This document shows positions 32,659-59,745 of a stretch of 64,000 bases of DNA, piece after piece. Position numbers and translations under genes: made by a program. The notes under the pieces were generated by a model. The model ran no database searches, had not been told where the DNA came from, and saw only the letters and a list, made by a program, of their open reading frames with translations. Source of the stretch: Scenedesmus sp. PABB004 (taxonomy: Eukaryota); the NCBI GenBank assembly GCA_014905635.1, contig JABVCE010000014.1:620001-684000 (forward strand), read 5' to 3'. Each line of letters starts with the position of its first letter. Position 1 is the first letter of the stretch.

Positions 32659-33827
32659 ATGGCGCGCGCTGCGCTGGTGGCGCTCCTGATGCTGCAGCTC
32701 TCCACGAACGTGCTCGGCGATGTCGACGTCGACGCCGGCGCGGGTGCGGCAGCGCGCGCCGCTGCCGCTGCCGCCGCGCGGCACTGCTGCGAGAGCCCGC
32801 CGCCTGCGCTCTGGCCGCACGCAGGCAGCAGCGGCGTGGCAAGGGCGCTGCTGCAGGCGACCGCGCGGCGCGGCGGGCGCTGCGGCCCGCGCGTTGGGCG
32901 GAAGGGCACTCGCTGCGGGTTCGCCCAGTGCTGCAGCGCGGCCGGGCGCTGCGCGGCGAGCAAGGCCGCCTGCGGCGCCGGGTGCCAGGCCGGCTGGGGA
33001 CGCTGTTCGTCCAACCCGGCCACGTCGCCGTCGCCCGGCCCGGTGACGCCGCCGAGCGAAGCGTCCCCGGCCCCGCCGTCGCCATCGCCGTCCCCGCCGC
33101 CCTCGCCGTCGCCCTCGCCCTCGCCCTCGCCGTCGCCGCCTCCCGGCCAGGCCGCCGGTTGCCCTGCGGGCTGGGAGCCGGCCGTGGGCACGCTCTATGA
33201 CAGCTGGCCCAAGGTGCGGGGGCGCGGCGCCGACCGCGCACGCGCGCGCGGCGCCCCAGCCGCAGCAGGCCGACGGCCCGCTGTGCGCCGCGCCCCGCCC
33301 TCTCACGTGCGCAGCCGGGCACGCGGGAGTGTGTGGAGTACTCGGGGTGCCGCTGGGCGGGCATGTTCAAGCAGGTGAACCCCGGCCCATGCGGCGGCCC
33401 CTGCGCGACGGTCGACGGCGCGACCGCTCAGCTCCTCGACGGCGGCAGCGGCCAGGTCTGCTGCCGCTGGCCCGAGGCCGTGGTGCGCGGCTGGGCGATG
33501 GCCGCGACGTGGGAGCGCGACGACGCACTGCTGGGGAAGCGCGTCGACGTCATGGTGCAGGGCGGCGCCTGCACGGCAACGGTCAACGTGCGCGACGTGT
33601 GCGCCGACGGCGACTGCGACGGCTGCTGCAGCCGCAACACGGGCGGCGGCGCGTACAAGCTGATCGACCTGGAGAAGTGGAGCGCGGCGGCGCTGCTCGG
33701 CTTTGACCCCAGCGGCCCCAGCTTTGACATCAACGACGTGATCGACAGCGCCCCCACGGCCACAGGCCTGCGCCCCGGCGCGCCCGAGGGCGACGTCATG
33801 CCCCTGTGCTATCGCGTGACCGGCTGA
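32659..33827 (+). CDS. Secreted protein: hevein/CBM18-like domain, Ser-Pro linker and Cys-rich DPBB/barwin-like domain (2 exons)
   Basis: Signal peptide, CGPRVGRKGTRCGFAQCCSAAGRCAASKAACGAGCQAGWGRC (8-Cys hevein spacing), (SP)n linker, then ECVEYSGCRWAGMF...TVNVRDVCADGDCDGCC...LIDLE. Confidence 0.75.
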
Positions 33828-35867
33828 GCCGCGGCGGCGCAGCTGGGGGACGCAACGGGCGGGTGCGCGGGCGTGCGCGAGCTGCGCTGGCGCTGGGAGC
33901 GGGGCTGGCCGGCGCGCGGGCGCCGCGTACGTAATCGCATGAGGACACGTTGCACGCGCCCCGCACCCAGACCTGCTGCGCGACCGTCTGCGTCTGCTGC
34001 GCGTCAACTCGCTGCCGGGGGCGCCCCCGGCGCGCGGCCGCCCGCTGTGCGTTCTTCTTGTGCGCCACCAGCGCCCTGGACAGCTCCTCGTCGCCGCGGC
34101 ACAGCTCCTCCAGCTGGCGCGCGACCGTGGGCGGGTCCTCCTGCGGCGGCGGCGCGCGAGAGTGCTCAGCGTGGGCGCACGGGCAGGCAGCTGCGCCAGC
34201 AGGCCGCCACGCGGCCGCCTGCAAGCGCTGACACCTCGCATTCGAGGTCGATTTCGTCGTGAGTGCCGCAGAGCTGCCAGACTCGCAGACACGTCAGCCG
34301 CGTGGCGTCCGTCAGGCTGGCCACGCCGCGCATGCCCAGGCGAGGCGCAGAGCTGAGGTCCAGGTTCTGCAGCGCAGTCAGTGCGCGCGCCAGGTACACC
34401 ACGTCGGCGTCGCGCACGCAGTCGCCGGCCAGTCCCAGCGACGTCAGCTCGCTCAGCAGGCCGAGGCGCCCCGTGCGGAGCGCGCCGGGCTTGAAACATG
34501 ACCCAAGCGTCAGATCGCACAGGTCGGGGCAGGCCCCCACCAGGGCGTTGAGCTCAGCCTTCGCCAGCTGCGCGCCTGAGCCATGCTCGCTGCCAAAAAT
34601 GGACAGCCGCCGCAGCGACGGCAGCGCACGCGCAAACAGGCGCGCCGCGGCGCCGGGCGCCAGGCCGCCGCCCGACAGGTCCAGGTGCGACAGCTGCGAC
34701 AGCGACGCGATGCTGCTGGCACAGTCAGCGCAGCCGGCCAGGATCTGGTGGCGCCCAAAGTCAAAGCTCAGCTCCTGCAGCCGGGCCAGGTGCGGCAGCA
34801 CGCGCAGCAGCGCTGACGTGGTGGCGCTGTCGCCGCCCTGCCACAGGCTCAGCCTCAGCGCCGTGAGGCGCGTGAGCGGCGTGAACGCTGCGGCCGGGTC
34901 GACCAACGTGGCCTGACGCAGGCGCAAGCACTCCAGGCCCGTGAGGTGCACGAGGGCGGCGGGGCCCGCCACGCCGCCTTCCAGGTTGTCCATATCCAGG
35001 TGCGTAAGCGTGGACGCCAGCGGCGGGATGGCGACAGCGATCGTGTCATCGTCTTCGGGCGCACAAGTCATCGACAGGTCGCGCAGCCCCGTCACCGCGG
35101 CCGCGATTTCGAGCGCCTCACTGCCGTCGTACGCATCAGACATTCCCAGCATGGTCAGCGCCGGCGCCTGGTGCAGCAGGTCGACAATCGCATCGGCATG
35201 CCCAAACGAGACGTCCAGCTCGAGCAGGTCCGGGCACAGCAGGCCGGGGAGGGCGCAGCAGTCCAGGATGAGGCGGGTGAGCGCCGGCAGGGTGCCGCTG
35301 CCGCCGCCGCGCGCCGCCACGTCCATGCTGTGGCACGTCAAGCTGCGCAGGCCCTGCAGCTCGGAGAGTGGCAGCGCCAGCTGCACCGGCTCTTGCGGAA
35401 ACAAGGGGCCATCTGCCCTGAGGCTCGTCACGCCGCGCCCGCGGCGCGCCAGCCAGCCGCTGAGCGCGGCGGCGCGCTGGGCCGCGCTTCCGTCCTCGCC
35501 AAACTCTACGTGCACCTCGCTGCTGGACGCGGCCGCCGCGTCGGCCCAGGCGCGGCACACGAGCGCGGCGGCGCCCAGGCGCTCGGGCTCGTCCAGCTCC
35601 GCCAGCACGCGCGGCAGCACCTCCGCCGGCAGCCGCGCAAAGGGCGACGCGCCCTGCGGCACGCGCGTTGAGGCGGAGGTGAGAGGAGGAGGCGTTCAGG
35701 CTGGCGGCGGGGGTGCTGGCTCGCGCGCGCGGGCGGCTGCCGCAGGCGGGCGCACAGTGGCGGCAGCAGCGGCAGCAGCGTGCGCTCGTCCGGCCCCCGC
35801 GCCGCCGCCGGCCGCCGGCCGCTGGCGACCGCCCGTGATCACCGCTCACCGCGTCACCGGGCTCCAT
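33796..35867 (-). CDS. F-box/leucine-rich-repeat protein, paralog A (3' end uncertain)
   Basis: Exon 1 MEPGDA|GTGAG, F-box-like FARLPAEVLPRVLAELDEPERLGAAALVCRAW, a dozen or more LxxLxLxx repeats, last exon EDPPTVARQLEELC. The end given is the first in-frame stop. Confidence 0.85.
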
Positions 35868-36477
35868 GGGCGCGGCGCTGCAGGCGGGTCCGGCGCCAGG
35901 CGCGGCCGCGGCGAGCGGCGCTGCCGGCGGGCGCGGCGGGCGCTGCCTCCACGCGGCCGGGCGGGCCGGGCGGGGCTGCGGGGCGGCACCGGTAGGCGAC
36001 TCAGGCCGCGGATCAAGCTGCGCTGCAGCGAACGGGCGGGCGGGGCGACTGAGGGCAGGGGCGGCGCTGCCGCTCCGTCGAGGTGCGAGGCGCGGGCTGG
36101 GCACGCGTGGGCGGGCGGGTGCAGCGTGGGGCTGGCGGGTGTGGACCGGGCGGCGGCGCGCTGTCGGCGATCGCGCGCAGAGCCGCGCTGCGCCCTGGCG
36201 GCGAGCCCTGCGCCGCGGGCAGTCCACGCGCCCGCGCGCCTGCGCGGCTCCCGAGTCGGGGCCGCGGCTCGCGCGGGCAGTTTTCAGCTCAATTCCCAAC
36301 AACACGCGCTCCCGAGTGCAATGCACGCCGAGGAACCCCCCCCCCCCCCCCCCCCCCCACCCCTGCGCCGCCGCGTGCAGGGCCCTCGGCCGCCCGCCTT
36401 GCTGCTGAGGGGCCCAACGCGCCCAACGCCTGCGCCGGACGCCACGGCGCCGCGCCCGTCCGGGGCTCCCGGAGTCC

Positions 36478-36645
36478 CTGAGCTCAGAGGCTCAGGGGCT
36501 TGTTGCTGTGTCGGTGGCAAGCCCTCAACGAGCCCTGAACCTCTCAGAGGCTGAGGAGACTTGGTGATGTCGGCGGCAAGCCTTTACACAAGCCCTACAC
36601 CCTCTCAGAGGCTGAGGGACTTGTTGATGTCAATGACAAATCGAA
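36478..36645. repeat. Three diverged copies of a ~60-bp unit containing the ADH stop-codon region
   Basis: CTCAGAGGCTCAGGGGCTTGTTG (36483), CTCAGAGGCTGAGGAGACTTGGTGATGTC (36543), CTCAGAGGCTGAGGGACTTGTTGATGTC (36604). Confidence 0.8.
36584..36588 (-). promoter_or_regulatory. Putative TGTAA polyadenylation signal of the ADH gene
   Basis: TTACA on the plus strand just downstream of the ADH stop. TGTAA is the known chlorophyte poly(A) signal. Confidence 0.5.
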
Positions 36646-39600
36646 ACTTCACGTCGCCCGCCTCCATGCGCTCCATCGCGGCGTTGACGTAGTCCATGTC
36701 GATGACCTGGCGCGGCGGCGCCCGGCGCGGGGCGCGGTGACCGGCACGGGCGCGGCATGAGCGGGGCGCGGGCGCGGGCGGGGCGTGAGCGGGGCGCGGG
36801 CGAGGGCGGGGCGGGCCGCGGGCGCTGCGTCGTGCCGGGAGCTGCTGCGTGCGGCGGCGGCGCGGCGGCGCAGCGCGGCGGCGCGCGCCTCGACGTCGGC
36901 GGTGATGTTGTGCTTGCCGCAGAAGTCCAGCATCTCCTGCGTCATCACCAGGTTGCCGATCACGCTGCCCGCGACGGTCAGGTTGCTGCGCGGCGCAGCG
37001 CGTGGCGCGGCGCGGCGCGCGTGGCGGGCGCGCGGGCGGGCGTCGGCGCGCGCGCGCAGCAGGGACCGCGCCGCGCCGCGCCCCCGCCCCCCGCGCCGCC
37101 GCTCTCCCTCCCGCAGCTGGCTCGCCCTCCCGCCGCCGCCGCGCGCGCTCCCTCCCGCCGCTGGCACGCCCTCCCGCCGCCGCCGCGCGCGCTCCCTCCC
37201 TCTGCCGCCGCCGCGCCCGCCGCTTGCCCCGCCGCCGCACCGCATGACGAGGGAGAAGTGGTTGATCGTCGGCTGCTCCGGGGGCAGGCCGACGATGACG
37301 AGCTTGCCGCGTGGCGCGAGCAGCTCCATGAGCGCCGCGACGTCGTGCTTGGCCGACACGGTGTCGATGATGCCGTCGAGCGTGCCTGACGGGCGCGCGC
37401 GCGAACAACACGCGGGCGCGGGCGGGCGGCGGGCGGGGCGGCGGTGGGGCAAAGGCGGCGGGGCGTGGGCAGCGAGCGAGCGGCGGTGGGACGGGCGGTC
37501 GGCGGCGGCGGCGGCGGGCGGCGGCGGCGGCGGCGGCGAGCGTGCAGTCGGCGGCGGCGGCGGGCGGGCGGGCGGGCGGGCGGCGGCGCACCCGCGGCGG
37601 CCTTCATCGCCTCCGCGTCGCCCGAGGGGATGACCGCGGTCGCGCCCATGGCCTTGGCCTCGGCCTCCTTGGCGCGCGAGCTGCGGCGCGCGGCGCCGGC
37701 GCGCGGCGTCGCCACGCAGCGCTGCCTTCACCTGCCCCGCACCGCCCCGCCTGCCCCGCCCGCCGCCTGCCGCGCCGCCCTGCTGCTGCCCGTCCGCCCG
37801 CCGCCGCACCGGGAGATGACGTAGACCTCGCAGCCGAACGCGGCGCCAAACTTGACGGCCATGTGCCCGAGGCCGCCCAGGCCCACGACGCCGATCTTGA
37901 GCCCCGGCTTGTCCAGGCCGTTGTCCTGCGCCGCGCCAGGGGTTCAGGGTTCGGGGGTCAGGGGTCAGCGGTTGGGGTTGGAGGCGCGGCAGCGGGGCGG
38001 GCGAGCGGCGAGACGGCCGCGCCCGCTGCGGCGCGCCAGTGCTCCGAGCCCTAAACCCCCGCGGGCCCAACATATTCTTAAACCCCCGCGCGCGCCTTGA
38101 AGGGCGCGTAGGTGGTGATGCCGGCGCAGAGCAGCGGCGCGACGCCGGCGAGCTCGAGGTTGGCGGGGATGGTGTACGTGTGGCTGCGCGCGGCGTGGAG
38201 CAGGGCGGCGTACGCGGGCGGCGCGGGCGTGAGGGCTCGCCCGCGGGCGCCGCGGGGCCCTGACGGAGGCCCGCCCCGGCCGCCAGCCGGGCCAGCGCCG
38301 CCCCGGCCGGCCCCGCCGCGCGGCGCGCAGGGCCCCGGCGCGCGCGCCGCCGCTCACTCCTCTGCCATCACGATGTGGGTCGAGTAGCCGCCCTGCGCGG
38401 GCAGGCCGTCGTAGTGCGTGGAGTTGTAGGTGTAGACCAGCTTGGGGCAGAAGATCTGCTCCCCCGCCTTGCACTGCCCGCACGTGCTGCGCGGCGGCGG
38501 CGCGCGGGCCGACAGGGTCAGCGGCGGGCGGCGGGCCCGGCGGCGCAGGCGGCGGCGGCGGCGGCCGGCGGCGCTGGCGCGCCGGCCGGCCGGCCCCGCG
38601 GCGAGTCCAGCCCAGCCCAGCCCGCGCGCGCACCGGCAGGTGTCGACGAACACGCCCACGCCGGCGCGGTCGCCGGGCTTGAACTTGGTGACCGCGGGGC
38701 CGACCTCGGTGACGATGCCCACGATCTCGTGCCTGCGCAGGTGCGCGGCGGCAGTTTACCCGGGTTTAGGCGACACCAGTCCAGGGTTTAAGGGCGGGCC
38801 CCCCGCCGCGGCCCTAAACCAACCCTGCGCGGCGCGGCGCGGCGGCGGGCGCCACCCGCCCCGCCCGCGCGGCGGCTCACCCGGGCACCACCGGGTACTT
38901 GGCGGGGCCCCAGTCGCCGCGGATGGTGTGCAGGTCGCTGTGGCACATGCCTGCGGCGCGGCGCGGCGCGGCGGCGGAGACCGCGTTGCTCGCGCGCCGC
39001 CGCCGACGCCGCCGCTGCCCCTGCCCCTGCGCCCGCCGCGCCGCCGCCGCTTGCGCCCGCGGCTGCCCCTGCCCCTGCGCCTGCCCTGCGCCTGCCCCTG
39101 CGGTCGCCGCCGCCGCGGCCGCGCACCCGCGTGTGTGATCTTGATCATCACGTCATTCGGCTGCAGCGCGCGGCGGTCAAACTTGTAGGGCGCGAGCGTG
39201 CCGCTCGTGTCGCGCGCGGCCCAGCCGAGCGTGTTGCCCGCGCTGCCCTCGACCGCCTGCGCAGGCGCGGGGGCGCGGGGCGCGCGGGGGCGCGTCGGCG
39301 GCCGCGGCGCGGCGCGCCGCGCGCAGGCTCGCGCTCCGCTGAAGCTGCGGGCGGGGGCGCCCCGCCGCCGCCGCGCGGGCGCCGCTGCCGCCGCCCGTGC
39401 GCGCCTGGCTGGGCTTGGCGAACGCCTTGGCGAAGGCGTCAAACTCCACGCCGTCTGCGGGGCGCGGAACGTGAGGACGCGGCGGCGCGCGGCAGCGGCG
39501 GCAGCGCGCAGCGGCAGCGGCGCGGCCACGCACCGCCGGACGACAGCGCGGCCACGGCGCCGGCGTCGCCGTACTTGGCGCCCGCCGCCTTGAGGGCCTG

Positions 39601-39774
39601 CGGGGCGGGCGCGTGGGCGGCCGGCGGGCGCGCGGCGCGATCGGGGGGGGCCACAACGCGGCGCACCTCGGCGTCGATGCCCCCCGCGTCACCCAGGGTG
39701 TGCAGGAGGCTGAACTCGCGCGGGTGCGCCTTGCCCGCCTCGGGGCCGGCGCCCTTCACGGCGATGCGCGGCAT
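36605..39774 (-). CDS. Zn-dependent alcohol dehydrogenase, cinnamyl-alcohol-dehydrogenase-like, with N-terminal extension, about 13 exons
   Basis: [98 protein letters not shown]. Confidence 0.95.
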
Positions 39775-40762: not shown

Positions 40763-40799
<37 letters not shown>

Positions 40800-45200: not shown

Positions 45201-48200
45201 ACGCTGCAGCGTCTGCAGGCGCTGCAGGCCCGCATGGCCGAGGTGGGGTTGCGCTGTTTGGGATGCAGGAGGGACGCTGCGCCGGGCTTGCCCAGGCGGC
45301 AGGCGGTCCGCAGCCGGCCGCGCGTGGCGCCACCACCGCGGCCACAGCGAGTCAGCGCCGTCCGCGACCGCCCGTGCTGTCGCAGGTGCACGCGGCCAAC
45401 GCCGCCCCGCCGCCCGAGCAGCGCCTCTCCGGCGCGGAGCTGGTCGTAGAGTTGCCCCGCCTCGCGGCGGCGCGCGCGGCCGTGGACGCAGAGGTGGCTG
45501 GGCTGCTGGCGGCCGTGGCACGGGAGACGAGTGCGACCGAGATTCGCGCGGCGCGGCTCAAAGCGCTGTGCTGGGACGGCATGGCGACCAAGCCGGCACT
45601 GGTGACGGGGTTACGGCCCGGCGGCCCGGAGGTGTGGAACTTTCCACTGCCGCCGCAGGACGAGGCGGCCTGGGCCAAGGTGCGCCGCGCAGGCGGCCTC
45701 GGGGGTGGGGCGTCACCAGGGCCGCGCCGCAGGCCGGCGGTGCTGGCTCCAGAGCCAGAGTGCTGCCGTCGCCGCGCTGCTGCCAGGTCGCCAACCTGCG
45801 GCGCGTGGAGATGGCCGAGGCGGCCGCGCAGGGCCTGCTGCCGGGTGACGCGCTGTTTGGCGGCGCCGGCGGCAGCGGCGGCCAGACAGCAAGCGGCGCA
45901 GTGGCGGGCGCCGTCGGCGCCGCGGCGGCGGCTTGCGTCGACGCCGCCGCAAGCGACGCGCATGCCAGCGTGGGCGCGGCAGGCCTGCTGCCCGCCGAGG
46001 CGTCGGCCGCAGGCGCGGCGGCAGCCGACGCGCACACAGGCAGCGGCGCGCCGGAGGCGCAGCGACTGCTGGCCGCGCTGGGCGACGCCCCCGCGGCGGC
46101 TTGCCGCGCGGCCGAGCTCGCGTACGCCGAGGTGGACGTGACGCACCCGGGGCGCAAGCTGGCGCAGGCCCAGATCTACCGCCGCCAGGTGTGGGAGGTC
46201 AAGACGCGGTGAGCGGGCGCGCGCGCGTGCGGGGCGGCCCGAGGGCGGCGGCGTGGCGCGGCCAGCGCGCTGGCACGCACGCTGCCGTCGAGCGCGCGCC
46301 GCCGCCGCGCGCCGTGCCGCCCGCCAGCTTCAACGAGGAGGCGTCGGCGCTCGCGGCCGCCAAGCGCCGCGATGCGGACAAGCTCGCCGACCTCGCTGCC
46401 CGCATGGACGAGCTCATCCGCGAGCTCCTCAAGATTCACGCCGTGCTGCACCCGCAGCAGGCCGCAGCGGGGCAGCCGCCGCCCGCCCGCGAGGCGTCGG
46501 CGACGCTGCTGCCGCTGTCGGGCGGGCCGTCGGCCGCGGACGCCGGGCCGGGGTCCGGCGGCGGCGAGCCGAGCGCGGCCGAGGTTGAGGCGGAGCTGCG
46601 CGCCGGGAGGCTCGTCGCGCACTGGAGCCCGGCGGAGGAGCTGGAGGAGCACCTGCTGTCGGTCGCGCCGGGCGAGGTCAAGGTGTGCGTCGACGCGGCT
46701 GACGCGGCGTGCCCGGCCGCGCCTGCTGGGCGGCGGGCGACCCGGCCGCAGGGCGGACGAGCGCGCCCGGCCGCGCCGCGCACGCAGGCGCCGCGCTACC
46801 TGTCGCCGGCCGAGCGCGCCAGGGCCGCGGCCGAGGACGCGGCGGCTGAGGACGCGCGGCACCGCGCGGCGGCCGACGACGCGGCCGACCGCGCACTCAA
46901 GCAGGTGCGCCGCCGCCCGCGCGGCGCCCCGTCGCCCGCGGCCGCCTTTCCGCGCAGCATCTCGTGCGCGCGCCGCTCACACGCGCCGCTCGCGCGGCGG
47001 CGGCGGCGGCGGCGGCGGCGCCCAGATGATGGGCGGCCGCCTCGAGCGCGCGACGGACGAGGTCGCCGACCTCGTCGCCTGCCGGCCCGCCTGGATGGCG
47101 GGCGACCCAGCGGGCTTCACCGAGGAGCAGCTGCGCCTGTACAAGGAGTGCGCCGCGCACGAGCAGGCGGCGGTCGAGGACCGGCTCAAGCGCAGGGCGC
47201 TCATGGTGCGCGGCGGCTGCCGGGCGCGGCTGCCGGGCGCGGAGCGGCCCCTGCGCAGCAGGCCAGCGCGGCGGCGCGCGGGCGCCACGCTGCCAACGGC
47301 GCGCACGCCGCGCACGCCGCGCACGGCGCACAGGAGACGGAGCTGCGCGCGCTCAAGGCGTCGGCCGAGGACGTGGCGGCGCGCTTTGACGGCGCCGTCG
47401 CAGCGCTCGCGGCGCGGCGGCTGGACGTGCAGATGGAGGTGCGCTGAGCCGGCCCCACCTGCCTGAGGCAGGCGGCTGGTGCCCAGCGCGATCCCGAGAT
47501 GCCGCCGCCGGCCGGCATCTTCCCGGCGCAGTCGCGCCAAGGCACGCCCGGTCTGCACCGCCGCCGCAGGTCGCCGCGCTGCAGCGGCGCGCCCTGAGCC
47601 TGCTGGCGGACTATGAAACCGCCACAGTGACCGCGGGGCGCGGCGCGGAGGCCGCCGCAGTCGTGCGGCTCGCGGCCGCGCAGGAGGCGCTCGCGGGCAC
47701 CGAGGCGGTGCGCTGGCGCCGGCGGCGCTGCGCCCCGCGGCGCTGGCCTGCCCCGCGTGCCGGCCGCACCCGAGCTGCGCCGCGCCCGGCCCGCGCGCTC
47801 GCAGGAGCTGGGCGAGACGCGCGCGCTGCACGACCAGCGGGCGGAGGCGCTCGCGGCGCTGCACGCGCAGGAGCGCGCCGCCGACCGCGGCTTCAAGCGA
47901 GAGTTTGCCGCGGCCGACGGCGCAGCACTGCCGCGCCTGCTCGCCCTGTACCGGGCCCGCCTCCTGCCGCCGGCCGGCGCGGCGGGCGCCGTGCCGCCCG
48001 CCGGCTCGGCGGTGCTGGTCTTCGGGCCGCTCGGCGGCGCGCCAGGCGCGGTCGGCGCGGCCGGCGGCGGCGCGGCCGCCGCCTCGGCAGCGAGCTCCGC
48101 GAGCACCGACCTGCGGGGGCCGCTGGGCCCGCCGCCGGTCGCGCTCGTGCCGCTGAACGACGCGCAGCGGCCGGAGGGCGTCGAGCCCGGCCTCTGGCGG

Positions 48201-49675
48201 CGCTTCGTCGAGTACCGAGCTGTGCGGGCGGAGCTCGAGATGTCCGCGCGCGAGCAGACCGCCCAGGTGCCGCCGCGGGCGTGCGGGCCGGGACGCGCCG
48301 TGCCGTTGCGCGCGGCGTGCCGACGCCGCCGCTGTCGCCACCGCTGCCGTCCGCGCAGCTGCTGAGCCTGCAGCGCCAGCTCGAGCTGCTCGCGGGCCGC
48401 CAGGCGGGACTGCAGGCGGAGGCCGCCGCTGCGGGCGAGGCGGTCGACGCGCTGCGCACGCAGCGTGTCGCGGCGACGTTTGACGTGGAGCTCCAGCTGC
48501 GCCTGACCCAGGGCCAGGCGCGCAACGCCGGCCGCCGCGCTGCTCCGTCGCCTGTGCGCGCACAGCGGCCCGAGCGCCGCGCCCCGCGCCCCGCGCGCCG
48601 CGCAGGTCGAGGTCGCGCCGGCGGGCGTGGGCGGGCCGCCGCCTGGCGCGCTGCTGCTGGGCCGCGCGCGCGTCGACGCGCTCAACGCAGTCATCGCCAC
48701 CAAGGGCGCCGCCAAGCTCGAGGCGCTGCGCGGCATGCGGGCGGTCAAGCGCAGCATCCATCTGGCGGAGTGGGAGAACCGCCGCGCGGACATGGAGGCG
48801 CGGCGCCGGCCAGCGCGCAGCGCGCGGCGCGGGCGCGCGGCGCGGGCGCGCGGCGCGGCGCCGGCCAGCGCGCAGCGCGCGGCGGCCAGCTGACCGCGTT
48901 TGCGGCGCGCCGCGCAGGCCGAGGACGCGGCGGCGCTGACGCAGCAGCTGCAGCTGCTGCACGTCACCAAGGACTTTCAGCAGCTGGTCAAGGCCGGCGC
49001 GAGCGGCGGCGCGAGCGGCGGCGCGCAGCACCAGGAGGTCGCAAACCTGGAGGGCCTGATCAAGGTGCGCGGGGGCCCCGGGGTCGGCGGCGGCGGCATG
49101 TCTGCTGCGAGCGCCGGTTGCCAGAGGCGCGCGCGGTGGGGGGCCAGCCTGGGCGGTGGGGCCGCCGCCCAGCGGCGGCCGGGCGCGCGCGCTCGCAGGT
49201 CCGGCAGGCGCTGCAGGCCAAGGCGGTGGACGTGAAGCGCCACCAGCTGCGGCGCGTGGAGGCGCGCATGGCCGCCACGCGCGCGGACAGCGCGCGCGCC
49301 GCGCAGCACCTCGCGGGCCTCGAGGCGCTGCTCGACGACCAGGAGCGCCTCGCGGGCGCCGCCGCGGGCGGCGACCCCGCGCCCGGCCGCCTCGCGCGGA
49401 GCCTCGCAACGCAGCGCAAGCTGCGCGACATCGCCGACGCGCAGGCCGCGGAGCTCGCGGCCGCGCGGGCGGAGCTCGCCGCGCTGCAGCGGCGCACGTT
49501 TCCGTTCTTTGATCCCGACGGCGGCGGCGGTGCGCGCGCGGGCGACCCCGCCGCGGGGGGCACGACGCTCGCGGCGCGGGCGGGCCGGGCGGCGGGCCCG
49601 GGGGCGCTGGGGCCGGACGCCAAGTCCACGAGCGCGGCGGCGCCGCGCAAGGCCCTGCTGCCAAGCCGGCGCTGA
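42256..49675 (+). CDS. CFAP43: Cilia- and flagella-associated protein 43 (WD40 repeats plus coiled coil), about 18 exons
   Basis: N-terminal WD repeats (LCVWHWRE, VSFHP, HVGAVTGL...LLSCGVDGSVRAW), RLKALCWDGM, ALKQ|MMGGRLE, LTQGQ|VEV, LQLLHVTKDFQ and KLRDIADAQAAEL...LQRRTFP. Start exon MLTPS is inferred from splice sites. Confidence 0.85.
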
Positions 49676-50080
49676 ACCGGCGGCGGCAACGGCGCCTGCC
49701 TCGCTCTGCGGCCGACGGTGGGGCGCGGCGCAGGGCTCGCCGCCAGGGCACAGCGCGGCCCCTCTGCGCGCTCTCGTCAGCCTGGCTGCGCCGCCGCCCG
49801 GTCCACACAGCCGCCAGCCCCACGCTGCACCCGCGCCCCACGCGCGCCCAGCCCGCGCCTCGCGCCTCGACGGAGAAGCAGCGCCGCCTCTGCCCCCAGT
49901 CGCCCCGCCCGCCCGTTCGCTGCAGCGCCGCGTGGTCCGTGGCCTGTGTCGGCTGCCGGTGCTGACCCGCAGCCCCGCCCGGCCCGCCCGGCCGCGTGGA
50001 GGCGGCGCCTGCCGCGCCCGCCGACAGGGCCGCCCGCCGTGGCTGCGCCTGGCCACGGTCCCGCCTGCAGCGCCGCGCCC

Positions 50081-52217
50081 ATGGAGCCCGACGATGCGGT
50101 GAGCGGAGATCACTTGCGGGCGCCAGCGGCCGGCGCCCGGCGGCGGCGCGGGGGCGGGACGAGCGCACGCAGCTGCCGCTGCTGCTGCGCGCCCGCCTGC
50201 GGCAGCCGCCCGCTTGCGCACGCGCGAGCGCCCCTGCTGCCAGCCTGAGCATCTCTCCCTCACCTCCGCCTCAACGCGCGTGCCGCAGGGCGCGTCGCCC
50301 TTTGCGCGGCTGCCGGCGGAGGTGCTGCCGCGTGTGCTGGCGGAGCTGGGCGTGCGCGAGCGCCTGGGCGCCGCCGCGCTTGTGTGCCGCGCCTGGGCCG
50401 ACGCGGCGGCCGCGTCCAGCAGCGAGGTGCACGTGAAGTTCGGCAAGTCCGAAAGCGCGGCCCAGCGCGCCGTCGCGCTCAACGACTGGCTGACGCGCCT
50501 TGGGCGCGGCGTGGCGAGCCTGTACGCTCACGGCCCTGGGGCTCACTCCGTGAAGCTGGAGCTGCCGCTGTCGCTGCCTCAGCTGTGCAGCCTGACGTGC
50601 ACGGGCATGACCATGGCGCTGCGCGGCGACGGCGGCGGCGGTGGTGGCGGCGGCGCCCCGCTGCCAGCGCTCCCGCCTCGACATGAACCGCTGCACCTTC
50701 CCCGCCGGCATGCTGTGCCCGGGCCTGCGCGAGCTGCGCCTGCGCGAGCTGAGCCTGTACAACTGCAAGGGGGCATCGGCCGGCGAGGTGCTGGCGGCGC
50801 TGCAGCGCATGCCGGCGCTCACAGACGTTTTGATCGTCGGCCACCCGCTGGCCAGCGCCGTGCTCTCGGCCGCAGCCGCGCTGACGGGGCTGCAGCGCCT
50901 GTCGCTGTATGTGCACGACGCACCAGGGCCGACGCATGTCCCGCCGCTGGCGCCCGCGCTCATGCACCTGGGTTTGAGTGGCCTGCAAGGCGGCGCGGCG
51001 GGCCCCGCCGCCCTTGCGCACCTGACGGGCCTCGAGTGCTTGCGCCTCTGCGACGTCACGCTGATCGACCCGGCCGCGGCGTTCGCGCCGCTCACGCGCC
51101 TCACGGCGCTGACGCTGCGCCTGTGGGAGGGCGGCGACAGCGCCACCACGTCGGCGCTGCTGCGCGTGCTGCCGCGCCTGGCCCGGCTGCAGGAGCTGTG
51201 CTTTGACTTCGGGGACCAGCAGGTCTTGGCCGGCTGCGCCGAGTCTGCCAGCAGCATCGCGGCGCTCACGGGGCTGTCGCACCTGTGGCTGCGTGGCGAC
51301 GGAGTGGCGCCCGGCGCCGCGGCGCGTCTGTTTGCTCGCGCGCTGCCGTCGCTGCGGGAGCTGACCATTTTTGGCTGCGAGCATGGCTCAGGCGCGCAGC
51401 TGGCGAAGGCTGAGCTGGACGCCCTGGTCGGCGCCTGCCCCGGCCTGCACAAGCTGCGGCTCTCGAGGGCAGTCGAGCCGGGCGTGTCCTGCGCACGCCT
51501 CGGCCTGCTGAGTGAGCTGACGTCGCTGGGACTGGCCGGCCACTGCGTGCGCGACGCCGACGTGGCGCACCTGGCGCGCGCGCTGACCGCGCTGCAGGAC
51601 CTCGACGTCCGCAGTGCGCCGCGGCTGGGCGCAGCCGGCGTGGCCAGCCTGGTGGACGCGACGCGGCTGACCCGTCTGACCCTTGAGCCGTGCGGCTTCA
51701 ACCCAGACGAGGATGATGGCGACGGCGTGGGCGGCGCCATCCTGATCTTGTTGAATGTCAGCGGCGGGCGCTTCCACGCGGCGGCCTGCTGACGCAGCTG
51801 CCTGCCCGTGCGCTCACGCGCTCACGCGTGCCCGTCGCCGCAGGAGGACCCGCCAATGGTCATGCGCGAGCTGGAGGAGCTGTGCCGCACCAACGAGGCG
51901 CTGTACAGGGCACTGCTGGAGCACAAGAGTGCGCAGCTGGCGGCGGCGCGCGGTGAGCGCTGCGAGCGGGAGCGCTGGTCGCGGCTGCGCCCTCTGGCGG
52001 GGGTCGCGCCCAGTCGCGGCGTGTGCGCGGCGTCTCACGTGCTGTGCCGCCACCGCCCCCCTCCCCGGCAGACGCGCAGCAGCAGACGCTGGCAGCCAAG
52101 GACCAGGAGCTGGCGGCCGCGCGCGTGAGGGAGCAGCGGCTGGCTGCGGAGCTGGCGGCCGCGCGCGCGCGGGCTGCGGAGCTGGAGCAGCAGCTGGCGG
52201 GGTGCGGGCGCGGCTGA
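50081..52217 (+). pseudogene. F-box/LRR paralog B with a 2-nt deletion frameshift at about 50672 (pseudogene or sequence error)
   Basis: Same exon layout as paralogs A and C. Reads CTC-CCGCCTC where A and C read CTC-ACCCGCCTC, so the F-box frame (ORF 50214) and the LRR frame (ORF 50641) differ. Confidence 0.65.
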
Positions 52218-52430
52218 GCGAGGCGGGTGGGGCGGCGCAGCGGCACGAGGGAGCAGTTGCGGCAAGGTTTGATGGTTGACACGACGCGGCGGTGCGGCGG
52301 CGACGGCGTGCGGGGCCAGAGGGTGAAGCGCGGCGCCGCCGCCGCGGAGAGGCGGCCGGAGGTGTGAAGCCCTACAGGCCCCCGGTCCCGCCCGCCATTG
52401 CCCGTTCTCACCGCACCGCACTCCTGACGC

Positions 52431-54241
52431 ATGAGCCGCGCCCTTGCGACCGCCGGCTGCCTGCGCGGCACGGTGTCGCAGATCGGTGCCGGCGCGCTGC
52501 TGCGGCGCGCGCCGCGCGGCATGGCCAGCACGGCGGTGGCCGAACGCACGCGCGGCCGAACGCGCGGCGCGGGCGGCGCGGCCCCCCAAAGCGGCGGCGG
52601 CAGCGGCAGCGGCGGCGGCAGCGGCAGCGCGCGGCGCGGCGCGCGCGGTGGTGCCAAGACCGCGCCGCCGCGCCAGCCCGCGCCGGGCGCGGCGGCGGTG
52701 GAGTGCGACGACGGAAAGCGCCGGTGCGGGCGGATGCGCCGGGTTCGAGCGCCGCGCGCCGGCGCAGGAGGCCTGCGCCGCCGCCCACTGCCCGCGCGCC
52801 CGCGTCTCCTCGTTTCGCAGCTGCCCCTGGGGCAAGGCGTTTGTGGGCGCGAACTCAGAGGCCTACGTGCGGTGCGCACGGCGCCAGGGGGCTGTGCGGG
52901 GGCGCGAGTGGCGCGCGCGCCGCGGCGAGGATACGCCCCGCGCAGCAGCCGCGCGCCGTCAACGCATCGCACCCGTCCCACCCCTCCCACCCCGGGAGGT
53001 ACCACGACACCGAGTGGGGGCGCCCCGTGCGCGACGACGCGGCGCTGTTCGAGCTGGTGACGCTGGAGTGCGCGCAGGCGGGGCTGAGCTGGTGCGCGCG
53101 CCCCGACGCCGGCGTGTGCGGCCGTGCGCCACAACACAGCAGCCTGCTGCACGCAACACCACCACGACCCACCCGCGCCGCAGGGCGACGATCCTGGCGA
53201 AGCGTGAGGCCTACCGCGCGGCGTTTGCGGGCTTTGACGCGGCGGCGGTGGCCCTGTTCGGCGACGCGCAGGCGCGGGGCGGCGGGCGGGGGGAGCGGGA
53301 GGCAGGGTGGCTCGTGGCGGGGTGCGCCTGCGGCCGCGGGCGGCGGCGCTGTGCCCCCTTAGACGGGGCACACGCGCGCGCGCGCGAGCGCGGCCGCGCG
53401 GCCGCTTGAGCACACCCCCACACCACACAGGTGGAGGCCCTGCTCGCTGAGGGCAGCGGCATTGTGCGCAACCGAGCCAAAGTCGCCGCGGCCATCCACA
53501 ACGCGGGGTGCGCGCAGGGGAGGAGGAACGGCGGCGCCAGCGCCGCCGTTGGTGGTGCGCCTCCGCCCCGCGCGCGCGCTGGGCCCGCCCGCCGGCGGCG
53601 TCCGTCCGAGCCAGGGCCCTCCCGCCCCCTGCCTGCCTCTGCCCCCAGGTGCTTCCTGCGCGTGCAGCAGCGCCACGGCAGCTTCGCGGCCTGGCTGTGG
53701 GGCCGCATGCCGGGCGGGCGGCAGCTGGACAATGCGTGGACCGACCTGAGCCAAGTGCCGGCACAGTGCGCGCGCCGCGCGCGCCGCGCGCGCCGCGCGC
53801 GCCGCGCGGGGACGCAAGCCGCGGAGCGGCGGCGTCCAAACACCCAGGCACATCTGACGCAGCCACCAAACGCGCCCACAAACGCCACGTCAACCGCCCG
53901 CCAGGACGCGCGAGTCCGAGGCGCTCAGCGCGGCGATGAAGGCGGAAGGGTTTAAGTTTGTTGGCCCCGTCACGTGCTACGCGCTGATGCAGGTGTGTGT
54001 GGGGGCTGGTTGGTCATGGTCATGGTCATGGCGCGCCGCGCGGCTGACGCGGCAGGCCCGCAGCAAGCTTGGCGACCGCCTCGCTAGCTCTCCGCGACAC
54101 CGGCGCGGCTGATGCGGCCGCACGGCTCCCTTTGGACCCCCCCCCCCCCCCCGCCCCGCCCCGCGCGCGCGCCAGGCGGCTGGTCTTGTGAACGACCACC
54201 TCGTGTCGTGCTTCTGCCACGCCGAGTGCCGCGAGCACTAG
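52431..54241 (+). CDS. tag: DNA-3-methyladenine glycosylase I (Tag family), about 8 exons
   Basis: DGKRR|CPW, YHDTEWGRPV, LFELVTLECAQAGLSW|ATILAKREAYRAAF, IVRNRAKV, GFKFVGPVTCYALMQ|AAGLVNDHLVSC. Confidence 0.95.
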
Positions 54242-54311
54242 CGCCGGTGCATGCTCTCAGCAGGAAGGGAACGCATGGATGAGAACCCAATGCTGGCCTG
54301 ACCCTTGCGGC

Positions 54312-54316
54312 TGTAA
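54312..54316 (+). promoter_or_regulatory. Putative TGTAA polyadenylation signal of the glycosylase gene
   Basis: TGTAA about 70 nt after the stop codon. Confidence 0.55.
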
Positions 54317-54715
54317 TCAAACAGCAGGTCCGCGGCGCAGGGCTGCGCCGCTGAAGGAGCGCCGGCGGCGGTTCTGCGCGGACCGCCCTGCCGCGCGCCG
54401 CGGTCGCCGTGATGATGCCGCCGCCACCATTCTGCAACACTCGCCGCAGCCGCCCCGCCGCCACACACGCCGCACCCGTCCCCCCGCGCGCCGCGCACGC
54501 ACACAGTTCGAACTGCGCTGGCCCCGCCCGCGCCCCCCCCCCCCGCCCGCCCGTTCGCTGCAGCGCCGCGTGATCCGCGGCCTGCATCGCCTACCGGCGC
54601 CGCCCCGCAGCCCCGCCCGGCCCGCCCGGCCGCGAGGAGGCGGCGCCCGCCGCGCCCGCCGGCGCCGCCTGCCGCGGCCGCGCCTGGCGCCGGTCCCGCC
54701 TGCAGCGCCGCGCCC

Positions 54716-56637
54716 ATGGAGCCCGGTGACGCGGTGAGCGGTGATCACGGGCGGGCGCCAGCGGCCGGCGGCCGGCGGCGGCGCGGGCCGCGCGAGCGCA
54801 CGCAGGTGCCGCTGCTGCCGCCACTGTGCGCCCGCCTGCGGCAGCCGCCCGCGCGCGCGAGCCAGCACCCCCGCCGCCAGCCTGAACGCCTCTCCCTCCC
54901 GCCTCCCGCCGCCGCGCGTGCCGCAGGGCGCGTCGCCCTTTGCGCGGCTGCCGGCGGAGGTGCTGCCGCGCGTGCTGGCGGAGCTGGGCGTGCGCGAGCG
55001 CCTGGGCGCCGCCGCGCTCGTGTGCCGCGCCTGGGCCGACGCGGCGGCCGCGGCCAGCAGCGAGGTGCACGTGAAGTTCGGCGAGGCGTTCAGAGAGTTT
55101 GGCGAGGTCGAAAGTGTGGACCTGCGCGCCGCCGCGCGCGCCGCCGCACTCAGCGACTGGCTGGCGCGCCACGGGCGCGGTGTGACGAGCCTCAGGGCAG
55201 AAGCAAGTACCGATGTTATTACATTCAACGAGCCCTCCCTCATCTCGCCAGAGCTGCTGCAGCTGGCGCTGCCCTTTTCGGAGCTGCAGGGCCTGCGCAG
55301 CTTGACGTGCACCAGCTTGGGCGTGGTGGCGCGCGGTGGCGTCGGCGCCGCCCTGCCGGCGCTCACCCGCCTCGCGGTCGTCCGCTGCACCCTCCCCGCC
55401 GCCTTGCTGTGCCCAGGCCTGCGCGAGCTGCACGTCACGGCTGTGCATGCAGATGCGATTGTTGAGCTGCTGCGCCAGGCGCCGGAGCTGACCAAGCTGT
55501 GGGGCATTTGGTACGACAGCCCCGGTGTAGCGGCTGCGTTCGCGGCCGCGGCCACGGTGACGGGGCTGCGGCATCTGACGCTGGGGTTTTTCTATAGCAA
55601 GCAAGCTGCAGACCCCGTGGCCGTCCCGCCGCTGGCGTCCATGCTCACGTGCCTGGATCTGGGCGACGACCTGGGCGGCAGCGTGGCGGGCCCCGCCGCC
55701 CTCGCGCACCTGACGGGCCTGGAGTGCTTGCGCCTGCGTCAGGCCACGTTGGTCGACCCGGCCGCGGCGTTCGCGCCGCTCACGCGCCTCACGGAGCTGA
55801 GGCTGCACCTGTGGCAGGGCGGCGACAGCGCCACCACGTCGGCGCTGCTGCGCGTGCTGCCGCGCCTGACCCCGCTGCAGGAGCTGAGCTTTGACTTTGG
55901 GGATCACCACCAGGTCTTGGCCGGCTGCGCCGACTGTGCCAGCAGCATTGCGTCGCTGACGCAGCTGTCGCGCCTGGTGCTGATGGGAGGCGAGTTGGCG
56001 CCCGGCGTGGCGGCGCGTCTGCTTGCTCGCGCGCTGCCGTCGCTGCGAGAGCTGCTCATCAAGTGCAATATTGAGGAGCCTGGCGAGCTGGCGCAGTCCG
56101 AGCTGGACGCCCTGGTCGGCGCCTGCCCCGGCCTGTGTGAGCTGCGGCTGTTGCATGCAGTCAAGCCAGGCGTGTCCTGCGCGCGCCTCGGCCTGCTGAG
56201 CGAGCTGACGTCGCTGGAACTGGCCGGCGACTGCGTGAACGACAACGACCTGGCGCACCTGGCGCGCGCGCTGACCGCGCTGCGGGACCTCGGCGTGCGC
56301 AGAGCGCCGCGGCTGGGCGCGGCCGGCGTGGCCAGCCTGGTGGACGCCACGCGGCTGACCAGTCTGCACCTTGAGAGCAAGCTGGCCAACATCACGCTGT
56401 TCAATGTGAGCGGCGGCAGGCGCTTGCAGGCAGCCGCACGGCGGTCTGCTGGCGCGGCGGCCTGCTGGCGATGCTGCCTGCCTGTGCGCCCACGCTGAGG
56501 GCCCACGCGCGCCGCCGCCGCAGGAGGACCCGCCCACGGTCGCGCAGCAGCTGGAGGAGCTGTGCCACAGGCACAGGCGCAAGGCGCTATCCAGGGCACT
56601 GCTGGCGCACAAGGCCGCGCAGCTGGCGTTGACATGA
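54716..56637 (+). CDS. F-box/LRR paralog C (stop precedes the last coiled-coil exon present in B)
   Basis: MEPGDA|GASPFARLPAEVLPRVLAEL, LRR array, intron from 56406, then EDPPTVAQQLEELC...QLALT-TGA at 56635-56637. A remnant last exon lies at about 56760-56900. Confidence 0.85.

Positions 56638-57970: not shown

Positions 57971-58017
<47 letters not shown>

Positions 58018-59711: not shown

Positions 59712-59745
<34 letters not shown>

What the first reader, a model, noticed from the sequence alone, without database searches (positions are those of the whole stretch)
33796..56637. Three F-box/LRR paralogs with variation concentrated on the exposed LRR beta-strand (immune-receptor-like)
Seen: scaffolds are near-identical (GPAALxHLTGLECLRL, GGDSATTSALLRVLP, LGLLSELTSL, HL/YLARALTAL) while the x positions of LxxLxLxx differ in A/B/C: ALRLS/ALTLR/ELRLH, HLDLS/HLWLR/RLVLM, RLSIFG/ELTIFG/ELLIKC, DLTLGS/KLRLSR/ELRLLH, NLDLSS/DLDVRS/DLGVRR, CLRVWQ/RLTLEP/SLHLES. 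Known: these positions form the concave ligand-binding face, and this pattern marks diversifying selection in plant NLRs and in expanded F-box families. Inference: a rapidly evolving SCF substrate-receptor repertoire, possibly targeting viral or parasite proteins for degradation in a green alga.
Basis: partly seen in the sequence, partly recalled or inferred. Interest (0 to 1): 0.75.

Follow-up and report, generated by a model that had tools for sequence, protein, structure and literature searches.

The report
Fast-evolving algal F-box LRR paralogs
A green alga carries several copies of a protein-tagging adaptor gene whose predicted target-binding surface has changed faster than neutral DNA, a known pattern for such adaptors that has rarely been documented in algae.

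Summary
Three paralogs lie in the window: A on the minus strand (34021-36217), B (49724-52217) and C (54541-56812) on the plus strand. Each encodes an N-terminal F-box, which passes the Pfam cut-off in all three, followed by 16 leucine-rich repeats. The AlphaFold model has pLDDT 89, and its best fold matches are COI1, TIR1, D3 and FBXL2.

In repeats 8-16, 25 of 35 concave beta-strand positions (x3, x5, x7, x8) vary among A, B and C, against 49 of 156 other non-core positions (p=1.7e-5). A codon model with fixed site classes gives omega 2.0-2.3 on the concave positions (LRT p=0.0003-0.002), 0.44 elsewhere and 0.08 on core leucines. Concave non-synonymous divergence is about three times the divergence of the adjacent intron.

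Corrections to the finding:
- Repeats 1-7 diverge broadly, with omega about 1.
- B carries a 2-bp frameshift.
- The near-identical 5' end includes an intron, so it reflects gene conversion rather than protein constraint.
- The copies are mosaics.
- At least three more paralogs sit, by inference, on the same 1-Mb contig, hidden in fused annotation models.

An immune role, SKP1 binding and transcription remain untested. This is a new member of a known kind.

The parts
34021..36217 (-). Paralog A, whole duplicated unit (upstream block, gene, start of tail)
   Evidence: blastn of the window against itself; three-way DNA alignment
35850..35867 (-). A exon 1 (MEPGDA), ATG at 35867
   Evidence: Conserved ATG and a G|GTGAGC donor in all three copies. 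Database proteins P0001, P0154, P0155 and P0156 contain MEPGD[A/S]GAS across this junction
35654..35849 (-). A intron 1 (196 nt), 87-93% identical among the copies
34235..35653 (-). A exon 2: F-box (about 35531-35641) and 16 LRRs (34274-35431). The segment with omega>1 on concave sites is LRR8-16 (34274-34960)
   Evidence: Pfam F-box-like 31 bits against a cut-off of 24.3; LRR register; AF2 model; codon models
34141..34234 (-). A putative intron 2 (94 nt, contains the in-frame TGA at 34166-34168)
   Evidence: Donor and acceptor keep phase 0 in all three copies despite intron lengths of 94, 87 and 118 nt. The model P0156 splices onto the same EDxPTV exon
33796..34140 (-). A tail exon(s), EDPPTVARQLEELC...; open to the stop at 33796-33798 if unspliced; further splicing unknown
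49724..52217 (+). Paralog B, whole unit. Exon 1 50081-50098, intron 1 50099-50288, exon 2 50289-51756, intron 2 51757-51843, exon 3 51844-51952, intron 3 51953-52071, exon 4 52072-52217 (stop at 52215)
   Evidence: The exon 3/4 junction ...AAAR|DAQQQTLAAKDQELAA...GCGRG matches the C-terminus of P0155. F-box-like 29.6 bits
50670..50673 (+). B frameshift: 2 bases missing relative to A and C (LPA-[CTCC]-RLDMN) inside LRR3
   Evidence: the two overlapping ORFs
54541..56812 (+). Paralog C, whole unit. Exon 1 54716-54733, intron 1 54734-54926, exon 2 54927-56405, intron 2 56406-56523, exon 3 from 56524 with TGA at 56635-56637
   Evidence: Pfam F-box-like 26.9 bits
52100..52200 (+). 42-nt tandem repeat (2.4 copies) inside the B tail, coding the Ala/Glu/Gln-rich helical repeat (KDQELAAAR..EQRLAAELAA)
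   Evidence: longer in P0155

Best explanation
A, B and C belong to a small, locally clustered family with at least six close paralogs. They are best read as SCF-type ubiquitin-ligase substrate receptors. Each has a short first exon, an N-terminal F-box that would dock on SKP1, and a 16-repeat LRR solenoid whose concave beta-sheet would hold the substrate. In the longer copies an Ala/Glu/Gln-rich helical tail follows.

The family evolves by duplication and by exchange of segments between copies. The promoter-proximal block, intron 1 and the F-box are kept alike by gene conversion. The exposed beta-strand residues of LRR8-16 have been replaced faster than neutral sites, so the copies should differ in what they bind.

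Shown here: the domain architecture, the fold, the site-specific excess of replacements with omega>1, purifying selection on the remaining sites of each copy, and the mosaic structure. Inferred: SKP1 binding, ubiquitylation, that the concave face is the binding face, and that different copies bind different substrates.
For: Architecture:
- Pfam F-box-like (PF12937) is above its curated cut-off in A (31.0), B (29.6) and C (26.9) against 24.3.
- The AF2 model of A has pLDDT 89.2 and pTM 0.88, with a strand at x3-x7 of all 16 motif-defined repeats.
- The top Foldseek PDB hits are SKP1-bound F-box LRR receptors: COI1 3ogl_B (E=9e-12), D3 6brp_B, TIR1 2p1m_B, MAX2, FBXL2 6o60_C and FBXL17 6wcq_B.

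Selection:
- In LRR8-16, 25 of 35 concave columns vary against 49 of 156 other columns.
- MG94-F3x4 fixed-site model: omega is 2.02 concave, 0.44 other and 0.085 core. The LRT against omega=1 gives 2dlnL=10.1, p=7.5e-4.
- GY94 gives omega 1.94, p=0.002.
- With segment-specific branch lengths omega is 2.26, p=2.5e-4.
- Shifting the register gives the highest omega at shift 0 among 23 shifts (2.02; the next is 1.58).
- The concave non-synonymous proportion is 0.36-0.42 against 0.136-0.140 mismatches in the adjacent intron 2 (p=2e-5 to 1e-3).

Constraint:
- Omega on non-concave sites is 0.38 (A), 0.35 (B) and 0.42 (C), each below 1 (p=0.0009, 0.015, 0.015).
- F-box omega is 0.15.

Six paralogs:
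- Concave entropy is 1.48 against 0.49 bits in LRR8-16 (p=5e-11) and 1.49 against 0.93 bits in LRR1-7 (p=6e-4).

Mosaic structure:
- The closest pair changes along the unit: A-B upstream, A-C in intron 1 to LRR10, A-B in LRR11-12, and B-C in LRR13 to the tail.
- In LRR1-7, B groups with P0001 and P0156, yet its F-box groups with A and C.
Against: - No evidence of transcription could be obtained.
- B has a frameshift. C has a stop 1 nt before the conserved exon-3 donor, and its exon-4-like region is in another frame.
- The codon test rests on three sequences and 35 codons, uses a home-written star-tree model, and uses a partition first suggested by looking at these same sequences. Adding x2 to the concave class weakens it (omega 1.65, p=0.013).
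- LRR1-7 shows no concave excess in omega (1.05) and weak constraint overall (0.78).
- At 79% GC an open frame is weak evidence of a gene. 127 ORFs of at least 120 aa overlap 33000-57500 across all six frames.
- LRR Pfam models fall just below cut-off in A and C (LRR_14: 38 and 36.6 against 40).
- No solved structure matches by sequence at E<=0.01.
Confidence: 0.6

Rival explanations
1. Immune-type repertoire. The paralogs are surveillance receptors that tag proteins of viruses, intracellular parasites or transposons for degradation. The concave-face turnover would then be an arms race, as proposed for nematode FBXA/MATH-BTB families and comparable to plant NLR LRRs. This is a special case of the best explanation with a named class of target.
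For: - Omega is about 2 on the concave face.
- Radical replacements occur at single positions across six paralogs, for example LRR11 x5 D/W/V/K/A/V and x7 S/R/M/F/R/F.
- The paralogs appear clustered and exchange blocks, as resistance-gene clusters are known to do (recalled knowledge).
- The literature proposes such a role for expanded F-box families (passages of PMC3030570 citing Thomas 2006).
Against: - No evidence on targets or induction.
- Only six close copies were found.
- No NB-ARC, TIR or other immune signalling domain.
- Hua et al. found no link between lineage-specific Arabidopsis FBX genes and stress or pathogen responses (passage in PMC3030570).
- Positive selection on a binding surface also follows ordinary neofunctionalisation towards host substrates.
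Confidence: 0.12
2. Relaxed constraint, or 'genomic drift'. The copies are redundant or decaying duplicates. Surface residues change because nothing holds them, and the apparent omega>1 is a small-sample or model artefact.
For: - B has a frameshift.
- C has a premature stop relative to the B/P0155 tail.
- Whole-gene NG86 dN/dS is 0.96-1.06.
- LRR1-7 omega is 0.78, with the concave class at 1.05.
- Hua et al. 2011 argue that most lineage-specific FBX loci drift neutrally (passage).
- Open frames are cheap at 79% GC.
Against: - With composition-aware models, core omega is 0.08 and other sites 0.44.
- Each branch, B included, has omega below 1 on non-concave sites.
- Neutral decay predicts omega about 1 on concave sites, not 2.0-2.3 (p=0.0003-0.002).
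- Neutral decay also does not predict divergence three times that of the neighbouring intron.
- The splice phases of intron 2 are kept in all three copies.
Confidence: 0.2
3. The proteins are not degradation adaptors. The F-box-like helices only cap the LRR solenoid, or recruit SKP1 for a non-proteolytic role, and the proteins act as scaffolds, possibly as dimers through the helical tail.
For: - No sequence-level match to any solved F-box protein.
- The C-terminal helical repeat tail is absent from my recollection of the plant hormone receptors and FBXL proteins among the fold matches.
Against: - The F-box-like model passes its cut-off in three of three copies.
- The F-box evolves under omega 0.15.
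- The best fold matches are all SKP1/ASK1-bound receptors.
Confidence: 0.08

Closest known systems
FBXL-type SCF substrate receptors (plant COI1/TIR1/MAX2-D3; animal FBXL2, FBXL17; yeast Dia2)
   Same: N-terminal F-box followed directly by a long LRR solenoid. These are the best structural matches to the AF2 model. The F-box is conserved and under purifying selection (omega 0.15).
   Different: - No detectable sequence similarity to any solved member at E<=0.01, and TM-scores of only 0.4-0.5.
- Irregular repeat lengths of 18-31 residues.
- A helical Ala/Glu/Gln repeat tail after the LRRs.
- The hormone and InsP pockets of TIR1/COI1 were not examined.
Lineage-specific, rapidly evolving F-box families (nematode FBXA; Arabidopsis FBA/FBK 'unstable' genes)
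   Same: A conserved F-box paired with a positively selected substrate-binding domain, in recent local duplicates that include pseudogenes (passages of PMC3719486 and PMC3030570; abstract of PMC8120010).
   Different: Those families use FTH/FBA/kelch modules and number in the hundreds. Here the module is an LRR, the host is a chlorophyte alga, and six close copies were found. Among papers holding the four terms F-box, Chlamydomonas, leucine-rich repeat and diversifying selection, only PMC3030570 was returned.
Plant NLR resistance-gene clusters (LRR xxLxLxx hypervariability)
   Same: Replacement excess on solvent-exposed beta-strand residues, paralogs apparently clustered on one contig, and sequence exchange between paralogs.
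   Different: No NB-ARC, TIR or CC-NLR domain. The effector end is an F-box, so any output would be ubiquitylation rather than resistosome formation.

Membership tests
F-box protein (SCF substrate receptor) | F-box motif of about 40-50 residues recognised by a curated profile | tested here: met
   PF12937 F-box-like scores A 31.0, C 26.9 and B 29.6 bits against a cut-off of 24.3. PF00646 F-box is below its cut-off in all three (16.9, 15.9 and 19.4 against 20.5).
F-box protein (SCF substrate receptor) | Binds SKP1 and assembles with CUL1/RBX1 | not testable with these tools
FBXL (F-box + LRR) class | LRR solenoid C-terminal to the F-box | tested here: met
   - 16 LxxLxLxx units.
- AF2 model with pLDDT 89.2 and a beta-strand in each unit.
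- Foldseek top hits are COI1, D3, TIR1 and FBXL2.
- By curated Pfam cut-offs the result is mixed: LRR_14 scores 38 (A) and 36.6 (C) against 40, not met. LRR_At5g56370 scores 28.8 against 27 in B, met.
FBXL (F-box + LRR) class | Sequence homology to characterised FBXL/TIR1/COI1 proteins | tested here: not met
   phmmer against all PDB chains returned 0 hits at E<=0.01. The resemblance is at the level of fold and architecture only.
Gene family under diversifying selection on its binding surface | omega>1 at a-priori binding-face sites, and <1 elsewhere | tested here: met
   - LRR8-16: omega is 2.0-2.3 on concave sites (p=2.5e-4 to 2e-3), 0.44 on other sites and 0.08 on core sites.
- Not met in LRR1-7, where concave omega is 1.05.
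- Only three sequences with DNA were available.
Plant-type NLR immune receptor | NB-ARC nucleotide-binding domain N-terminal to the LRR | tested here: not met
   No NB-ARC, TIR or RPW8 family appears among Pfam hits at E<=1 for A, B or C.
Immune or surveillance receptor (functional sense) | Recognises non-self molecules; induced by or required in infection | not testable with these tools
   No expression or interaction data could be obtained.

The most novel reading that the evidence does not exclude
A chromosomal cluster of at least six F-box-LRR-helical-tail genes acts as an SCF-based intracellular surveillance system in a green alga. Gene conversion keeps the promoter and the SKP1-docking end uniform. 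Block exchange and positive selection diversify the concave LRR face, so that the set can tag fast-evolving viral, parasite or transposon proteins for degradation. This would be an algal counterpart of NLR clusters, but with ubiquitylation as its output.
Probability: 0.12. Interest if true: 0.8.

Novelty: new member of a known kind. Interest (0 to 1): 0.42.

Why it matters
F-box families with conserved SKP1-docking ends and fast-evolving substrate-binding domains are well known in land plants and nematodes. Whether that pattern reflects adaptation or drift is still disputed (Hua et al. 2011 against Thomas 2006 and Navarro-Quezada et al. 2013; passages seen).

This locus gives a compact case in a chlorophyte. 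The binding module is an LRR with an unambiguous structural register, so the sites can be partitioned beforehand, and adjacent introns supply a local neutral yardstick. It also shows conversion of the 5' end together with diversification of the 3' end within the same genes.

If the substrates turn out to be foreign proteins, this would point to a ubiquitin-based innate defence in green algae. If they are host proteins, it is a clean example of neofunctionalisation.

It also flags an annotation problem. The paralogs are hidden inside fused gene models named ADH9, roco8 and ileS.

Tried and rejected
- **Whole genome:** none is held for the window, so a genome-wide census with DNA was not possible.
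- **RNA evidence:** no RNA holder was listed for window 49700-57000. Expression, the splice models and the B frameshift stay unchecked.
- **Near-length protein searches**: these found only P0001. The 'longer' search was needed to find A's own annotated model and two more paralogs.
- **Metagenome scans:** scans with alignment A1 and with P0001 gave 125 and 592 pattern matches but no relative, so no extra DNA was available for codon analysis.
- **Earlier findings:** look-ups by sequence and by genome returned nothing.
- **NG86 counting:** it gave whole-gene dN/dS of about 1. I rejected it as a summary because GC3 is 0.90. The composition-aware models give 0.42-0.56 for LRR8-16.
- **Intron rescue of B:** I considered a short intron that could rescue B's frame. 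The only GT..AG pair spanning the break is about 27 nt by my own reading of the alignment (no tool measured it), which is too short to be a credible intron.
- **Rfam:** no match at gathering thresholds anywhere in the window, so the conserved intron 1 is not a known RNA family.
- **Profile search of window ORFs:** a family profile over all 579 window ORFs of at least 60 aa hit only the four ORF pieces of A, B and C.
- **Not attempted:** a SKP1 complex prediction and a tail dimer prediction. No SKP1 sequence was in hand, and the tail claim is peripheral.


Full report
**What is there**

The window is extremely GC-rich: 0.67-0.86 in 2-kb windows, mostly 0.75-0.82. It looks eukaryotic, with short GT..AG introns. 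blastn of the window against itself finds three copies of a 2.2-2.5 kb unit:
- A on the minus strand (34021-36217)
- B on the plus strand (49724-52123 by homology)
- C on the plus strand (54541-56812)

A family profile run over all 579 stop-to-stop ORFs of at least 60 aa in the window hits only these three loci, as four ORF pieces because B is split. The DNA between the copies holds unrelated genes:
- an alcohol dehydrogenase next to A (seen in the fused model P0154)
- a WD40 protein at 42906-45449
- a methyladenine glycosylase inside 52280-53362
- an Nrap/NOL6-like gene at 57104-60496 on the minus strand

**Gene models**

All three copies share an ATG followed by 18 nt (MEPG/DDA). Next come a G|GTGAGC donor, an intron of 190-196 nt and a CAG acceptor that opens onto GASPFARLPAEVLPRVLAEL.... 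The junction is corroborated by database proteins that read MEPGD[A/S]GAS[P/A]FARLP (P0001, P0154, P0155, P0156).

Exon 2 carries the F-box and all the repeats. At its end, each copy has a GT donor and a CCGCAG|GAGGACCC acceptor. These remove 94, 87 and 118 nt, each containing an in-frame stop, and keep phase 0 in all three copies. The next exon (EDPP[T/M]V..QLEELC..ALL.H) is conserved with the C-terminal parts of P0001, P0155 and P0156.

In B, a further intron (51953-52071) joins to an exon ending at the stop 52215-52217. The joined reading (...AAAR|DAQQQTLAAKDQELAA...AAELEQQLAGCGRG) matches the C-terminus of P0155 almost residue for residue. That tail is an Ala/Glu/Gln-rich helical repeat built on a 42-nt tandem unit.

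C has a TGA at 56635-56637, 1 nt before the donor that B uses, and its exon-4-like stretch is in another frame. A diverges from B and C after about 34021. None of these models could be checked against RNA.

**Copy B is broken**

Relative to A and C, B lacks 2 bases at 50670-50673, inside LRR3 (LPA-[CTCC]-RLDMN). That is why one search lists two overlapping ORFs for it. The only GT..AG pair spanning the break is about 27 nt by my own reading of the alignment, which is too short for an intron.

Branch-specific codon models nevertheless give B the same constraint on non-concave sites as A and C (omega 0.35 against 0.38 and 0.42; each differs from 1 with p=0.015, 0.0009 and 0.015). The break is therefore either recent or an assembly error.

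**What the proteins are**

Pfam F-box-like (PF12937) passes its curated cut-off of 24.3 bits in all three copies: A 31.0 and C 26.9, B 29.6. The LRR models are marginal. LRR_14 scores 38.0 and 36.6 against 40 in A and C. LRR_At5g56370 scores 28.8 against 27 in B.

I marked 16 LxxLxLxx units in A, spaced 18-31 residues apart. An AlphaFold2 model of A was built on an alignment of 97 sequences: the three window sequences plus 94 of the 150 listed hits, chosen for lengths of roughly 400-770 aa. It has mean pLDDT 89.2 and pTM 0.88, and a DSSP strand begins at x3 of 16 of 16 units.

Foldseek against the PDB ranks SKP1/ASK1-bound F-box LRR receptors first: COI1 3ogl_B (E=8.9e-12), D3 6brp_B, TIR1 2p1m_B, MAX2, FBXL2 6o60_C and FBXL17 6wcq_B. 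Generic LRR proteins follow (internalins, TLRs, ribonuclease inhibitor). TM-scores are only 0.4-0.5. By sequence, no PDB chain matches at E<=0.01. The assignment is therefore by F-box profile, architecture and fold, not by homology to a characterised receptor.

**Checking the observation**

I took the canonical exposed beta-strand positions x3, x5, x7 and x8 of L1-x2-x3-L4-x5-L6-x7-x8 as the 'concave' class. Counts among A, B and C:

| Region | Concave variable | Other non-core variable | Core variable | Fisher p (concave vs other) |
|---|---|---|---|---|
| LRR8-16 | 25 of 35 (10 with three different residues) | 49 of 156 (0 with three) | 2 of 27 | 1.7e-5 |
| LRR1-7 | 21 of 26 | 65 of 97 | 6 of 20 | 0.23 |

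The per-position profile of LRR8-16:
- L1 and L4: 0 of 9 variable
- x3: 6 of 9; x5: 8 of 9; x7: 7 of 9; x8: 4 of 8
- The three positions after the strand: 6, 6 and 5 of 9
- The helix and loop remainder: mostly 2-4 of 7-9, with extremes of 0 of 4 and 1 of 7

The variation is thus concentrated on the strand and the loop that follows it, but only in the C-terminal nine repeats.

**Is it selection?**

Simple NG86 counting gives whole-gene dN/dS of 0.96-1.06. GC3 is 0.90, which biases that method. I therefore fitted fixed-site codon models in the manner of Yang and Swanson (recalled), with F3x4 frequencies, on the three-taxon star tree.

Results for LRR8-16 (227 codons):

| Model | omega concave | omega other | omega core | LRT of concave omega = 1 |
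|---|---|---|---|---|
| MG94 | 2.02 | 0.44 | 0.085 | 2dlnL=10.1, one-sided p=7.5e-4 |
| GY94 | 1.94 | 0.32 | 0.055 | p=0.002 |
| MG94, separate branch lengths for three sub-segments | 2.26 | 0.44 | 0.08 | p=2.5e-4 |
| MG94, three sub-segments as above, x2 added to the concave class | 1.65 | 0.44 | 0.08 | p=0.013 |

Further checks:
- The four-class model beats a single omega by 2dlnL=69.8.
- The loop positions 9-11 give omega 0.87.
- Sliding the concave label by -8 to +14 residues gives its maximum at shift 0. The next highest, 1.58 at +2, shares two of the four positions. All other shifts are at or below 1.07.
- As a yardstick free of any codon model, the raw non-synonymous proportion at concave sites (0.36-0.42) is about three times the mismatch proportion in the adjacent intron 2 (0.136-0.140; p=2e-5 to 1.2e-3).
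- In LRR1-7, concave omega is 1.05, other 0.84 and core 0.33, so there is no excess over neutrality.
- The F-box has omega 0.15.

Caveats: three sequences, 35 codons, my own implementation, no rate variation among synonymous sites, and a partition that, although canonical, was first pointed out on these very data.

**The 5' identity is conversion, not constraint**

Intron 1 differs by only 0.07-0.14 (JC) and the 250 nt upstream by 0.13-0.24. That is like the synonymous divergence of the F-box (0.04-0.14). Synonymous divergence is 0.16-0.23 in LRR8-16 and 0.30-0.40 in the middle of the gene.

The closest pair changes along the unit:
- A-B in the far upstream block (0.92 against 0.69)
- A-C from the 5' UTR to LRR10 (up to 0.97)
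- A-B in LRR11-12 (0.86 against 0.74)
- B-C from LRR13 through the tail (0.88-0.91 against 0.5-0.8)

At protein level, B groups with P0001 and P0156 in LRR1-7 (0.62-0.70 against 0.42-0.49 to A and C). Its F-box, however, is 0.97 identical to C and only 0.79 to P0001. The paralogs are mosaics produced by exchange between copies.

**Family size and identity**

- HMMER over 1.84 billion representatives finds 291 proteins at E<=1e-3 but only one below 1e-30 (P0001). The rest are about 30% identical. Nine that I looked up (P0003-P0010, P0013) come from unnamed metagenome or Logan assemblies.
- Near-length searches of the 5.8-billion set return only P0001.
- The 'longer' search returns three fused models: P0154, P0155 and P0156.
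  - P0154 (928 aa, named ADH9 [Scenedesmus sp. PABB004] by its source) is 100% identical to A and joins it to the neighbouring dehydrogenase.
  - P0155 (1934 aa, 'roco8') contains a further paralog.
  - P0156 (2440 aa, 'ileS') contains a further paralog.
- All four database proteins are recorded on one contig each, of the same length (1,005,304 bp). By inference this is the same contig that the window comes from.
- B and C themselves were not found as annotated proteins in the length classes searched.
- Adding the three extra paralogs strengthens the pattern. Mean entropy at concave against other positions is 1.48 against 0.49 bits in LRR8-16 (p=5e-11) and 1.49 against 0.93 bits in LRR1-7 (p=6e-4). 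In LRR8-16, 18 of 34 concave columns hold four or more different residues, against 7 of 143 other columns.

**Interpretation**

The best-supported reading is a small, locally clustered family of SCF-type substrate receptors that diversifies its predicted binding face while exchange between copies keeps the SKP1-docking end uniform.

That the concave face binds the substrate follows from general knowledge of LRR proteins and from the solved receptors among the fold matches. It was not tested here.

The literature I saw frames the same dispute for plants. [quoted passage not shown] Passages of PMC3030570 argue for drift in most lineage-specific loci, find no link to pathogen responses in Arabidopsis, and note unexplained Ka/Ks above 1.4 in some Chlamydomonas loci. 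A four-term search (F-box, Chlamydomonas, leucine-rich repeat, diversifying selection) returned only PMC3030570. Within that library I therefore found no description of such an algal F-box LRR cluster. Supplements were not opened.

**Verdict**

This is a new member of a known kind, of moderate interest.

Noticed in passing
window 34169-39700 (minus strand); proteins P0154, P0155, P0156: Public gene models fuse the paralogs with unrelated neighbours: alcohol dehydrogenase + A is named 'ADH9', a kinase/DnaJ-containing model is named 'roco8', and isoleucyl-tRNA synthetase + helicase is named 'ileS'. Near-length homology searches therefore miss the family. B and C were not found as annotated proteins.
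   Followed up: partly
window 35654-36117, 49831-50288, 54466-54926: The block upstream of the ATG and intron 1 are 80-97% identical among the copies, more alike than synonymous sites in the LRR exons. I read this as gene conversion. A conserved regulatory element is not excluded, and no Rfam family matches.
   Followed up: partly
window 56635-56637 and 56760-56900: Copy C has a TGA 1 nt before the exon-3 donor that B uses. Its counterpart of B's exon 4 reads in a different frame, so C may lack the helical tail.
   Followed up: partly
window 52100-52200; P0155 C-terminus: The helical tail is built on a 42-nt tandem repeat (2.4 copies in B). The repeat region is longer in P0155 (AAKDQELAAKDKALAAKDQELAA...), so tail length varies between paralogs.
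   Followed up: no
window 33000-57500, all six frames: 127 stop-free frames of at least 120 aa, some over 1000 aa, overlap this span on both strands because of the 79% GC content. Open reading frames alone are poor evidence of genes in this genome.
   Followed up: no
window 11256-11760 and 11856-12360; 2420-2519, 11304-11436, 11780-12036: A 505-bp direct repeat (96.8% identical) is flanked by long (CA)n microsatellites, and a related (CA)50 lies at 2420-2519. This is the least GC-rich part of the window (0.67).
   Followed up: no
window 42906-45449 (+), 52280-53362 (+), 57104-60496 (-): The neighbouring genes are unrelated to the family: a WD40 beta-propeller protein, a methyladenine glycosylase (PF03352, 44.7 bits) and an Nrap/NOL6-like protein (PF17406, PF17405).
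   Followed up: partly
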